From assembly GCA_024685275.1 (NCBI GenBank), contig JAIKVY010000187.1:1432-65431 (forward strand): 64,000 nt of DNA, given 5' to 3'. The position numbers and the translations under genes were made by a program. The DNA is from Clostridia bacterium (GTDB taxonomy: Bacteria; Bacillota; Clostridia; Christensenellales; DTU072). Positions 56,288 to 57,193 of the stretch are shown here, one piece after another; position 1 is the stretch's first letter, and each line of letters opens with the position of its first letter. Under the pieces are notes generated by a model. That model was not told where the DNA came from, did no database searches, and was given only the letters and a program-made list of their open reading frames with translations.

Positions 56288-57193
56288 CATTTCGATTTAA
56301 TTGTATTCAATACGGTTCGCTACGTCGTATTCGTTAATAAGGTCTTCTCGTTCCTATTAACTGCAACACATTTCTGTGTTGATTAGACTATATCATCATC
56401 CGAATTTAATCGGAGTTACTCACTTCCACTCGCTTGAGTGTACATCCATTACGGATTAGTCGTTGAATCTTCCACATATTTCCATGAAAATCCATACGCT
56501 TTATTTTGCAAGCCGTTGCAACAACACCTTATTTTGTTTGCAACCTTTTTAATAACCTTGGTATTTTTGAAATAATTCTGATTTAAGTATTCTGCCGCTT
56601 GGAAACTACTTTCAAAAGTCATATTTAATTGTTCGCAATGCACTGTTTTTTTGTGATAATTGACATATAACTTATTGCTTTTGGCTCTATCACGATTTTC
56701 TTTCGGAGTTACCCATTCTAGATTTATCGCTCTATTGTCATGTTTATTACAATTAATGTGATCAACGACAATTTTTTCTTCACTATCTTTTTCACAAAAT
56801 GCTTCTGCAACAATTCTATGAACTGAAATAGTTTTAACTACTTTATTTTTGCTAAGATCAACGGTTAGATAACCATTTTTCTTGCTTGCTTGTTTTAGAA
56901 TACAACTGTGAACCGTTTTATAACCAGAATTTTTTAATCCAGATTTAACCGTTCCTTCAATTCTTCTAATTCTTCCAAGGTCACTTACTTCGTAAATACC
57001 TTCATAATTTTTTATAGATTTCCATTTTTCCATAATCGTAATGTCCTTTATAAGTCTTACTAAGAAATATGTGTTTTGACTGCTGATTATCCAATTCTTA
57101 ACATTGTCACTTGATAAGGAGAATTCAAGTAGTTAAGACTCTAAGGATTTTCCAGCATTTCAAGTAATTTTATATCCCCAAAATCAATGCACT
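56288..57193 (-). mobile_element. group I intron (906 nt) with HNH homing-endonuclease ORF, inserted in the major capsid gene
   Basis: P1: exon AUCCCU pairs with intron GGGGAU (U-G at the splice site). The intron ends in G. The 3' core shows hairpins CAACACA-GAAA-TGTGTTG, TTAATAGG...CCTTATTAA, AATACG...CGTATT. Joining the exons is in frame (..TQVIP|EVDAY..). Confidence 0.65.
56449..57033 (-). CDS. intron-encoded HNH homing endonuclease (NUMOD4 + HNH_3, I-HmuI-like)
   Basis: KWKSIKNYEGIYEVSDLGRIRR. VDHINCNKHDNRAINLEWVTPKENRDRA. C-terminal AYGFSWKY. Confidence 0.85.
   Translation of the reverse strand: MEKWKSIKNYEGIYEVSDLGRIRRIEGTVKSGLKNSGYKTVHSCILKQASKKNGYLTVDLSKNKVVKTISVHRIVAEAFCEKDSEEKIVVDHINCNKHDNRAINLEWVTPKENRDRAKSNKLYVNYHKKTVHCEQLNMTFESSFQAAEYLNQNYFKNTKVIKKVANKIRCCCNGLQNKAYGFSWKYVEDSTTNP

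What the first reader, a model, noticed from the sequence alone, without database searches (positions are those of the whole stretch)
56288..57193. Major capsid gene split by a group I intron carrying an HNH endonuclease
The capsid N-terminal ORF (57601 downwards) and the ORF starting M-EVDAYVFSKL are separated by about 0.9 kb containing an I-HmuI-like HNH gene. Splicing after ..CAAGUGAUCCCU and before GAAGUCGAU is in frame (..TQVIP|EVDAYVF..). The last exon base is U. The exon sequence AUCCCU can pair with the intron sequence GGGGAU 14 nt downstream, giving P1 with the U-G wobble. The intron ends in G. The 3' region after the ORF contains stacked hairpins, including CAACACA-GAAA-TGTGTTG, as expected for a P7-P9 core. 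Introns in essential late genes affect late-protein timing and mark active homing.
Basis: partly seen in the sequence, partly recalled or inferred. Interest (0 to 1): 0.6.

Follow-up and report, generated by a model that had tools for sequence, protein, structure and literature searches.

The report
Self-splicing intron inside phage capsid gene
The major capsid gene of this roughly 77-kb gut phage is interrupted by a 906-base group I self-splicing intron that carries its own homing endonuclease gene; this is a well-supported but ordinary example of a known kind of mobile element.

Summary
On the minus strand the major capsid gene runs 57601..57194 (exon 1) and 56287..55433 (exon 2). The two exons are separated by 906 nt (57193..56288).

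- **Exact restoration.** Removing the 906 nt restores ..RTQVIP|EVDAYVFSKL.., as found uninterrupted in intron-less relatives of 84-89% amino-acid identity.
- **Group I features.** The insert has U-1 in a U·G pair (AUCCCU/GGGGAU), an adjacent P10 guide (GAUUUU/GAAGUC) and a terminal G.
- **Core.** It has a complete P3-P9 core with P7.1/P7.2, the Twort-type IA2 pattern.
- **Rfam.** RF00028 misses the element when searched whole, because a 581-nt loop in P6 holds the endonuclease gene. It hits both halves: 23.2 bits (E 3.5e-4) and 30.8 bits (E 1.9e-6).
- **Covariation.** Against four bona fide phage introns and a second capsid allele, 93.8% of cells pair, 34 pairs carry compensatory changes, and 0 of 500 shuffles reach this.
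- **Endonuclease.** The ORF is I-HmuI-like (PDB 1U3E, E 3.6e-15).
- **Second allele.** A 40%-identical capsid gene (L147) carries a homologous intron at the same codon. Its guide sequences are re-tuned to its own exons.

Splicing and homing themselves are inferred, because no RNA data exist. I file it as a new member of a known kind.

The parts
57194..57601 (-). Major capsid protein exon 1 (136 codons, ends ..AUCCCU; the last 6 nt, 57199..57194, are the exon strand of P1)
   Evidence: ORF list. PHROG 422 major head protein, E 2.1e-19. Collinear with intron-less alleles.
56288..57193 (-). Group I (IA2-like) intron, 906 nt. Intron position n corresponds to window coordinate 57194-n.
   Evidence: Absent, to the base, from L001/L103/L104. 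RF00028 hits both halves. Covariation.
57174..57185 (-). Internal guide sequence. GAUUUU (nt 9-14) is the P10 guide for exon 2 GAAGUC. GGGGAU (nt 15-20) is the P1 3' strand for exon 1 AUCCCU, with U·G at the splice site.
   Evidence: Both pair 6/6. The L147 allele has re-tuned guides, UACUUU/GGACACAAC. P1 also appears in the MFE fold.
57161..57167 (-). P3 5' strand UUACUUG (nt 27-33). It pairs with UGAGUAA (nt 772-778, window 56422..56416). There is no P2 between P1 and P3 (nt 21-26 are AUAAAA).
   Evidence: helix 1 is 92.9% paired, and 5 of 7 pairs have both-side changes.
57081..57157 (-). P4-P5 domain. P4 UGCUGG (nt 37-42) pairs with UCAGCA (nt 108-113), the P and Q elements. J4/5 is AAAA. 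P5 is nt 46-49/102-105, P5a is 56-62/92-98, P5b is 64-69/80-85.
   Evidence: RF00028 5'-half alignment. MFE fold z = -2.83. Covariation.
56473..57073 (-). P6: CACAUAUUUC (nt 121-130) pairs with GAAAUAUGUG (nt 712-721), 10/10, and closes a 581-nt loop that holds the endonuclease gene.
   Evidence: L147 has the covarying stem ACACAUAUUG/CAAUAUGUGU.
56449..57033 (-). Intron ORF, 194 aa: an I-HmuI-like HNH homing endonuclease (NUMOD4 + HNH_3). AAAGGA lies 10 nt before the ATG. The 3' end of the ORF overlaps P6', P7 and P7.1.
   Evidence: Pfam NUMOD4 54.9 bits and HNH_3 40.5 bits. PHROG 59, E 6.3e-40. PDB 1U3E, E 3.6e-15. 62% identical to the L147 intron ORF.
56386..56461 (-). Catalytic core, 3' part. 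R element/P7 GACUA (nt 733-737) pairs with S element/P7' UAGUC (nt 804-808); this is a pseudoknot with P3. P7.1 is nt 738-741/747-750. P7.2 is nt 754-758/763-767. P3' is nt 772-778. P8 is nt 780-784/791-795.
   Evidence: RF00028 3'-half alignment, 30.8 bits. blastn homology to Twort-type introns. Centroid fold. Covariation.
56288..56381 (-). 3' peripheral domain. P9 is nt 813-819/824-830 with a GAAA loop. P9.1 is nt 833-841/853-861. P9.2 is nt 863-868/880-885, with the loop motif UAGCGA. The terminal G is nt 906 (window 56288).
   Evidence: In P9.2, 6 of 6 pairs have both-side changes.
55433..56287 (-). Major capsid protein exon 2 (284 codons plus stop, starts GAAGUC). The ATG of the listed ORF 56290 is the last three bases of the intron and has no Shine-Dalgarno sequence.
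   Evidence: PHROG 422, E 2.2e-38. Sequence. Terminator at 55414..55384 after the gene, and none inside the intron on this strand.

Best explanation
The capsid gene is transcribed as one pre-mRNA (57601..55433, minus strand). The 906-nt insert is a group I ribozyme of the phage IA2 (Twort-like) type.

Proposed splicing mechanism, inferred from the established group I pathway:
1. The last six exon-1 bases, AUCCCU, pair with the guide GGGGAU (P1, with U·G at the cleavage site).
2. A free guanosine bound in P7 attacks after U-1 (window 57194).
3. The adjacent guide GAUUUU holds exon 2 (GAAGUC) in P10.
4. The terminal G (56288) enters the G site and the exons are ligated to ..AUCCCU-GAAGUC... The product encodes a continuous 420-aa capsid protein with the conserved motif VIPEVDAYVFSKL.

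Proposed homing, also inferred:
1. The loop of P6 carries a 194-aa I-HmuI-like HNH endonuclease, translated from its own ribosome-binding site.
2. During mixed infection the enzyme is expected to nick or cut intron-less capsid alleles at this conserved site.
3. Repair then copies in the intron together with a short stretch of flanking exon.

Shown here: gene interruption to the base, intron-less and intron-bearing alleles, the ribozyme core by covariance model, homology and covariation, and the endonuclease family.

Inferred: catalysis, in vivo splicing, and the cleavage site and homing activity of the endonuclease.
For: 1. Exact restoration. Deleting 57193..56288 gives the same protein sequence across the junction as uninterrupted alleles: L001 (84% aa identity), and L103 (89%) and L104 (84%).
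2. Covariance model. RF00028 hits the 5' half (57210..57020, 23.2 bits, E 3.5e-4, model 1-134) and the 3' half (56470..56364, 30.8 bits, E 1.9e-6, model 135-253), in the right order and on the right strand. A single local hit reaches 36.8 bits.
3. Homology. Intron nt 716-842 are about 75% identical to introns of Staphylococcus Twortvirinae, Enterococcus EF1 and Bajarodcaudo virus. Those introns score 52-90 bits on RF00028.
4. Covariation. On a 6-sequence alignment, 93.8% of cells pair, against 36-42% when partners are slid. 34 of 68 pairs change on both sides, and 0 of 500 shuffles reach this (the 5-sequence version is).
5. Independent folds. MFE or centroid folds of each half reproduce P1, P4, P5-P5b, P7.1, P7.2, P8, P9, P9.1 and P9.2.
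6. Splice-site rules. U·G in P1, terminal G, and P10 directly next to P1.
7. Second allele. L147 (40% aa identity in the capsid) has a 927-nt homologous intron at the same codon. Its endonuclease is 62% identical, and its P1 and P10 guides are complementary to its own, different exon bases.
8. No separate translation signal. There is no ribosome-binding site before the apparent exon-2 ATG, and exon 1 runs into a stop after 7 intron codons. There is no terminator within the intron.
9. Endonuclease. Pfam HNH_3 and NUMOD4 are above their cut-offs. I-HmuI (1U3E) matches at E 3.6e-15, and the DH..N..N motif aligns.
Against: - No single RF00028 hit reaches the gathering score of 50 bits, and the plain scans found nothing. 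I attribute this to the 581-nt loop in P6, but could not test an ORF-deleted construct with the Rfam model.
- There is no P2 hairpin, unlike the Twort-type relatives.
- No RNA data exist for this phage, so neither splicing nor the ligated junction has been observed.
- Only two intron-bearing alleles were found, so the P1/P10 covariation rests on one comparison.
- The pairing structure used for the counts was derived from the window sequence, which favours it somewhat.
Confidence: 0.92

Rival explanations
1. Split capsid gene without splicing. A free-standing homing endonuclease cassette broke the gene, and the two fragments are translated separately and assemble together, as with nrdA of Aeromonas phage Aeh1 split by mobE (recalled from memory).
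For: An ATG directly precedes the exon-2 coding sequence, so the ORF finder lists a 285-aa ORF. This phage also has free-standing HNH genes, for example 55307..54393.
Against: - There is no Shine-Dalgarno sequence before that ATG.
- A complete, covarying group I core flanks the endonuclease gene.
- The guide sequences match both exons, and re-match them in the L147 allele.
- The break lies in the most conserved motif of the capsid protein.
Confidence: 0.03
2. The intron is real but decayed. It no longer splices efficiently, or needs a host or phage protein cofactor, and the contig represents a defective phage.
For: P2 is missing. Only 36.8 bits are reached on RF00028 in one piece. The contig is binned in a MAG and could be a prophage remnant.
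Against: - All core helices are intact, with no mismatches in P3, P4, P6, P7, P7.1, P7.2, P8 and P9.
- The R and S elements match the consensus.
- The endonuclease ORF is intact and keeps the aligned HNH motif residues.
- The capsid exons are intact and 84-89% identical to relatives.
- L147 also lacks P2, so the absence is a lineage trait and not decay.
Confidence: 0.04
3. Another kind of insertion: an intein, a group II intron, an IS element or an assembly chimera.
For: None beyond the bare fact of an insertion.
Against: - The exon-1 frame stops 7 codons into the insert, so it is not an intein.
- There is no reverse transcriptase or domain V, and the size is only 906 nt.
- No transposase is present.
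- Both junctions are covered without differences by contigs from separate runs.
- The insert is single copy in the assembly.
Confidence: 0.01

Closest known systems
Twort-type (IA2) group I introns of Staphylococcus Twortvirinae and related Gram-positive phages. Examples here are the three tandem introns downstream of the tail sheath gene in phage vB_SauM-V1SA20 (L100) and those of Enterococcus phage EF1 (L101).
   Same: About 75% nucleotide identity from the R element to P9. The helix order P3-P4-P5-P6-P7-P7.1-P7.2-P3'-P8-P7'-P9-P9.1-P9.2 is the same. P9 has a GNRA tetraloop (GAAA or GUAA). The block GUACAYUCAAGYGARUGGAA is conserved, as is the UA(A/G)CGA loop of P9.2.
   Different: There is no P2. 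P5 is extended (P5a, P5b) and P9.1 is a long 9-bp stem. A 581-nt P6 loop carries an endonuclease gene, whereas the compared relatives are ORF-less. The host gene is the major capsid protein.
Bacillus phage SPO1 DNA-polymerase intron with I-HmuI (PDB 1U3E)
   Same: A group I intron of a Gram-positive-type phage encoding an HNH endonuclease of the same family: E 3.6e-15, residues 3-119 against 2-102, with the DH..N..N motif aligned.
   Different: The host gene differs (DNA polymerase). The C-terminal DNA-binding part of the protein does not align. The nicking behaviour of I-HmuI is known from the literature (recalled from memory) and is untested here.
Capsid-gene introns: mycobacteriophage LittleE and lactococcal phage Tuc2009 (PMC3706429)
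   Same: The major capsid gene is interrupted by an intron with U at the exon-1 end and G at the intron end. The LittleE intron (about 820 bp) carries an HNH gene and is spliced in vivo.
   Different: The capsid families and hosts are unrelated. The LittleE HNH gene is transcribed in the opposite direction, and the authors left the intron type uncertain ('most likely a group I'). Here the core is fully assignable and the ORF is co-oriented, in P6.
Phage T4 td intron with I-TevI
   Same: The endonuclease ORF is looped out of P6, with its 3' end overlapping core sequence. It is subgroup IA2 with P7.1/P7.2 (recalled from memory, not tested here).
   Different: The endonuclease is GIY-YIG, not HNH. 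The host is Gram-negative and the gene is thymidylate synthase. The td intron has P2.
PhiPA3 intron endonuclease gp210 (PMC11620839)
   Same: An intron-encoded HNH endonuclease in a phage essential gene. It was shown to nick a competitor phage's homologous gene and to give a competitive advantage.
   Different: It comes from a jumbo Pseudomonas phage and targets an RNA polymerase subunit gene. No competition data exist for the present element.

Membership tests
Group I intron (Rfam RF00028) | The 5' splice site follows a U that forms a U·G wobble in P1 with an internal guide sequence | tested here: met
   AUCCCU/GGGGAU pairs 6/6 with terminal U·G. P1 is also present in the MFE fold.
Group I intron (Rfam RF00028) | The intron ends in G (omega-G), and a P10 pairing lies between the guide and the start of exon 2 | tested here: met
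   The last base, 56288, is G. GAAGUC/GAUUUU pairs 6/6 and lies directly 5' of the P1 guide.
Group I intron (Rfam RF00028) | Conserved core P3-P8 with the P/Q/R/S elements and the P3-P7 pseudoknot | tested here: met
   Elements found: P AUGCUGGAAAA, Q AAUCAGCAG, R AUUCAACGACUA, S GAUAUAGUC. All helices are formed. Covariation: 93.8% paired, 34 compensatory pairs, 0/500 shuffles.
Group I intron (Rfam RF00028) | Scores at or above the family gathering threshold (50 bits) | tested here: inconclusive
   There is no hit on the 3-kb locus or the whole window. The halves score 23.2 and 30.8 bits, and the best single local hit is 36.8 bits. The 581-nt P6 loop prevents a full-length alignment, and an ORF-deleted construct could not be submitted to the Rfam tool.
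Group I intron (Rfam RF00028) | Guanosine-dependent self-splicing, or a ligated exon junction in RNA | not testable with these tools
   No RNA run holds the locus. Only DNA runs do.
Subgroup IA2 (Twort/T4 type) | Two extra hairpins, P7.1 and P7.2, between P7 and P3' | tested here: met
   P7.1 is AUCC-GUAAU-GGAU and P7.2 is CACUC-AAGC-GAGUG. Both are 100% paired across 6 sequences, each with 3 compensatory pairs. Both appear in the centroid fold.
Subgroup IA2 (Twort/T4 type) | P2 hairpin between P1 and P3, as in the Twort-type relatives | tested here: not met
   Only AUAAAA (nt 21-26) separates P1 from P3. L147 likewise has UAUAAAAUAAA. P2 is not a universal group I feature, so this marks a variant and is not an exclusion.
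HNH homing endonuclease, I-HmuI family | HNH catalytic motif plus an N-terminal NUMOD4 module, with sequence similarity to I-HmuI | tested here: met
   HNH_3 scores 40.5 bits (cut-off 24.8) and NUMOD4 54.9 bits (cut-off 23.4). 1U3E matches at E 3.6e-15, with VVDH..N..N..NL.WVT aligned.
HNH homing endonuclease, I-HmuI family | Site-specific cleavage or nicking of the intron-less allele | not testable with these tools
   This needs an enzyme assay on the L001-type target ..GTTATTCCA|GAAGTCGAT..
Mobile (homing) intron | Presence/absence polymorphism at one precise site among related genes, with the element more conserved than its host gene | tested here: met
   The intron is absent to the base in L001, L103 and L104. 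It is present at the same codon in L147. There the intron aligns at 69% nucleotide identity over 742 nt and the endonuclease is 62% identical, while the capsid is 40% identical and its DNA barely aligns.

The most novel reading that the evidence does not exclude
The intron and its endonuclease form a lineage specialised on the invariant VIPEVDA motif of this capsid family. It moves between phages whose capsids are only 40% identical. The endonuclease would then act as an interference weapon: by cutting the capsid gene of co-infecting intron-less relatives in the gut or rumen, it lowers their progeny, as shown for PhiPA3 gp210. On this reading it is more than a merely selfish passenger.
Probability: 0.15. 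Interest if true: 0.5.

Novelty: new member of a known kind. Interest (0 to 1): 0.3.

Why it matters
**Annotation.** The capsid gene of this phage and of L147 should be annotated as one joined CDS. Left as called, it appears as two 'hypothetical' fragments plus an HNH gene.

**Method.** ORF-bearing group I introns escape a standard Rfam scan. They are recovered when the two flanks of the ORF are searched separately. The same applies to the unannotated introns seen in GenBank phage records (L100-L102).

**Biology.** This adds a fully assignable example to the short list of capsid-gene introns. It comes with a pair of divergent alleles whose guide sequences co-vary with their exons, which makes a convenient system for testing homing or interference between uncultivated gut phages. 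It does not change what is known about group I introns.

Tried and rejected
1. **Plain Rfam scans.** The 3-kb locus at E<=1 and the whole window at gathering score gave no group I hit. This reflects the 581-nt insertion in P6 and the fact that truncated alignments are allowed only at sequence ends. It is not absence of a ribozyme.
2. **First manual assignment.** I initially read the R element as UAAGACUUAUA just upstream of the ORF, which would place the ORF in P8. The covariance-model alignment put R (AUUCAACGACUA) in the last codons of the ORF, and a perfect 10-bp P6 closes the ORF loop, so I dropped that reading.
3. **MAFFT on full-length relatives.** The 5' third (P1/P2) was misaligned. 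I therefore trimmed P1/P2, the P5 extensions and the P6 loop before counting pairs.
4. **Megablast against phage genomes.** No match. No close cultured relative exists in that collection.
5. **RNA evidence.** No RNA run holds the locus.
6. **Search for an intron-less joint in DNA runs.** None was seen. Coverage was low and fragmentary, and run X5 mostly holds other organisms' intron cores.
7. **Other copies or introns in the assembly.** The intron is single copy. The S-element motif occurs once in the window. The weak RF00028 hit on contig C214 (19.6 bits) lies in ordinary coding-looking sequence and was dismissed.

Full report
**What is in the sequence**

All features are on the minus strand.
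- An ORF of 143 aa starts at 57601 behind an AAGGAG box. A second ORF of 285 aa runs 56290..55433. Between them lies a 194-aa ORF at 57033..56449.
- The first and third ORFs both match PHROG 422, 'major head protein'. The first matches the N-terminal part of the profile (1-62 of 297). The third matches positions 114-294.
- The middle ORF carries Pfam NUMOD4 (54.9 bits) and HNH_3 (40.5 bits), both above their cut-offs.
- Joining 57194 to 56287 keeps the frame and gives a 420-aa protein.
- That protein aligns in one piece across the junction with uninterrupted capsid genes of Lactococcus phage 1358, Listeria phages P35 and P40, and others.

**Intron-less alleles fix the boundaries**

- IMG/VR and metagenome scans found close relatives with a continuous gene: L001 and L104 (84% aa identity) and L103 (89%).
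- The protein alignment shows ..SRTQVIPEVDAYVFSKL.. uninterrupted. This is among the best conserved stretches of the family.
- At DNA level the window aligns to L001 up to 57195 and again from 56287. The 906 nt 57193..56288 are therefore absent essentially to the base.
- One other cut also keeps the reading frame and the protein: one base to the left. It would put C at the exon end and U at the intron end. The cut given here obeys the group I rules (U-1 and terminal G).
- Contigs from separate sequencing runs cover both junctions without differences. The insert is single copy in the 2.19-Mb assembly. It is not an assembly artefact.

**The insert is a group I ribozyme**

*Covariance model.* A plain Rfam scan finds nothing. 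Searched as two pieces on either side of the ORF, RF00028 hits both:
- 57210..57020: 23.2 bits, E 3.5e-4, model positions 1-134.
- 56470..56364: 30.8 bits, E 1.9e-6, model positions 135-253.
- A whole-genome search gives 36.8 bits for the 3' part.

These alignments place the classical elements:
- P: AUGCUGGAAAA.
- Q: AAUCAGCAG.
- R: AUUCAACGACUA, which lies in the last codons of the HNH ORF.
- S: GAUAUAGUC.

*Helix assignment.* Intron position n corresponds to window coordinate 57194-n.

| Helix | Intron positions | Note |
|---|---|---|
| P1 | exon -6..-1 / 15-20 | AUCCCU/GGGGAU, U·G at the splice site |
| P10 | 9-14 / exon 2 +1..+6 | GAUUUU/GAAGUC |
| P2 | none | nt 21-26 are AUAAAA |
| P3 | 27-33 / 772-778 | |
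| P4 | 37-42 / 108-113 | |
| P5 | 46-49 / 102-105 | |
| P5a | 56-62 / 92-98 | |
| P5b | 64-69 / 80-85 | |
| P6 | 121-130 / 712-721 | 10 perfect pairs; closes a 581-nt loop with the ORF at 161-745 |
| P7 | 733-737 / 804-808 | |
| P7.1 | 738-741 / 747-750 | |
| P7.2 | 754-758 / 763-767 | |
| P8 | 780-784 / 791-795 | |
| P9 | 813-819 / 824-830 | GAAA loop |
| P9.1 | 833-841 / 853-861 | |
| P9.2 | 863-868 / 880-885 | |
| Terminal G | 906 | |

Thermodynamic folding of each half on its own reproduces P1, P4, P5-P5b, P7.1, P7.2, P8, P9, P9.1 and P9.2, with z-scores of -2.8 and -2.2.

**Homology and covariation**

- blastn finds about 75% identity between intron nt 716-842 and sequences in three groups of phages: Staphylococcus Twortvirinae, Enterococcus phage EF1 and Bajarodcaudo virus.
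- Those places are unannotated ORF-less introns that score 52-90 bits on RF00028.
- They share the helix order, including the P7.1/P7.2 pair. By my recollection of the Michel-Westhof classification and the Twort ribozyme structure, that pair marks subgroup IA2.
- I aligned four of these introns, the L147 intron and the window intron. P1/P2, the P5 extensions and the P6 loop were trimmed first.
- On that alignment the proposed structure pairs 93.8% of cells, against 36-42% when the 3' partners are slid by 1-3 columns.
- 34 of 68 pairs change on both sides, and none of 500 shuffles reaches any of the five measures (the 5-sequence version is).
- Two caveats apply: there are only six sequences, and the structure was drawn from the window sequence.

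**A second intron-bearing allele**

- Metagenome contig L147 encodes a capsid protein only about 40% identical. It is interrupted at the same codon (..RVKVVP|EVDAVRFSKL..) by 927 nt.
- The insert is homologous: 69% nucleotide identity over 742 nt, with an endonuclease 62% identical. The flanking capsid DNA barely aligns.
- Its guide sequences are different and fit its own exons. P1 is GUUGUGCCU/GGACACAAC (8 of 9 pairs). P10 is GAAGUA/UACUUU (6 of 6 pairs). Swapping guides between the two alleles never pairs better, and in three of the four tests pairs worse.
- Its P6, P7.2, P3 and P8 carry compensatory changes, and it also lacks P2.
- Together with the intron-less alleles, this is the pattern expected of a site-specific mobile intron that has entered divergent phages at one conserved target.
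- In the window allele the last nine exon-1 bases (GTGATCCCT) differ at three silent positions from the closest intron-less alleles (GTTATTCCA), while the preceding 36 bases are almost identical. This is compatible with co-conversion, or with selection for the U·G pair and P1. I regard it as suggestive only.

**The endonuclease**

- The only solved structure found is I-HmuI of phage SPO1 (1U3E, E 3.6e-15, residues 3-119). The VVDH..N..N..NL.WVT block is aligned.
- The ORF has AAAGGA 10 nt before its ATG.
- Its 3' end overlaps P6', J6/7, P7 and P7.1. Translation and ribozyme folding therefore cannot occupy the same RNA at once. This arrangement is known from T4 introns (recalled from memory).

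**Alternatives**

- Separate translation of two capsid fragments is unlikely. The apparent exon-2 ATG is the last three intron bases and has no ribosome-binding site. Exon 1 would gain a 7-residue tail. The ribozyme core is intact and covaries.
- An intein is excluded by the stop codons. A group II intron and an IS element are excluded by content and size.
- A decayed, non-splicing intron cannot be excluded without RNA. No helix carries a defect, and both exons and the endonuclease ORF are intact.

**Context**

- The window lies on the largest contig (77,122 bp, 33.5% G+C) of a 29% G+C MAG from a gut metagenome.
- Related viral contigs are 60-79 kb. The contig is therefore probably a complete or nearly complete phage genome binned with, or integrated in, its host.
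- No terminator-like site lies inside the intron on the coding strand. One follows the capsid gene at 55414..55384.

**Comparison with what is known**

- Group I introns with HNH genes are common in phages of Gram-positive bacteria.
- Capsid-gene introns have been reported in lactococcal phage Tuc2009 and, with demonstrated splicing and an HNH gene, in mycobacteriophage LittleE (PMC3706429).
- An intron HNH endonuclease has been shown to act in phage-phage competition (PMC11620839).
- The present element is therefore a new member of a known kind. Its minor variant features are no P2, the ORF in P6, and a long P5 and P9.1.

**Verdict**

My confidence that this is a functional group I intron with a homing endonuclease is about 0.92. 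Interest is modest (0.3).

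Noticed in passing
window 53724-55307 (minus strand): Directly after the capsid terminator lie a free-standing 304-aa HNH endonuclease (NUMOD1/NUMOD3/HNH_4; 55307..54393), with its own near-consensus promoter (TTGACT-17-TATAAT), and a 193-aa ORF (54305..53724). The intron-less relative L001 has only about 100 nt between the capsid gene and the next shared gene, so about 1.7 kb holding both genes is an insertion in this phage.
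   Followed up: partly
L147 261-1187 (metagenome contig Ga0310786_10152493): This is a second capsid gene, about 40% identical, interrupted at the same codon by a homologous 927-nt group I intron. Its HNH endonuclease is 62% identical, and its P1 and P10 guides are tuned to its own exons.
   Followed up: yes
L100 1519-2415 (ON814135.1), L101 1533-2525 (MF001358.1), L102 1817-2109 (PQ006092.1): Deposited phage genomes carry unannotated group I introns. There are three in tandem after the tail sheath gene of a Staphylococcus Silviavirus, and two or three in Enterococcus phage EF1. One more lies about 370 bp upstream of the annotated anaerobic ribonucleotide reductase gene of Bajarodcaudo virus 1. 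They score 52-90 bits on RF00028, and small 'hypothetical protein' CDSs have been called across them.
   Followed up: partly
window 57194-57202: The last nine exon-1 bases (GTGATCCCT) differ at three silent positions from all three close intron-less alleles (GTTATTCCA), while the 36 bases upstream are nearly identical. This could be a co-conversion tract or an adaptation to P1 pairing, including the obligatory U-1.
   Followed up: partly
window 56353-56433 and 57082-57162, in run X5: In a mammal metagenome run, the conserved intron-core segments collect many short divergent contigs (summed depth 30-49), while the rest of the locus is nearly uncovered. Many related group I introns from other phages are present in that sample.
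   Followed up: no
window 57669-59128 (minus strand): The two ORFs upstream of the capsid gene (313 aa, and 167 aa with a very acidic E/D/S/K tail) have no Pfam or PHROG match. They sit where scaffold or protease genes are expected.
   Followed up: no
G000 contig C61 (77,122 bp): The contig holding the window is the largest of the MAG and has 33.5% G+C against 29.1% for the whole bin. It has no terminal repeat. It may be a binned free phage genome, not necessarily part of the bacterial chromosome.
   Followed up: partly
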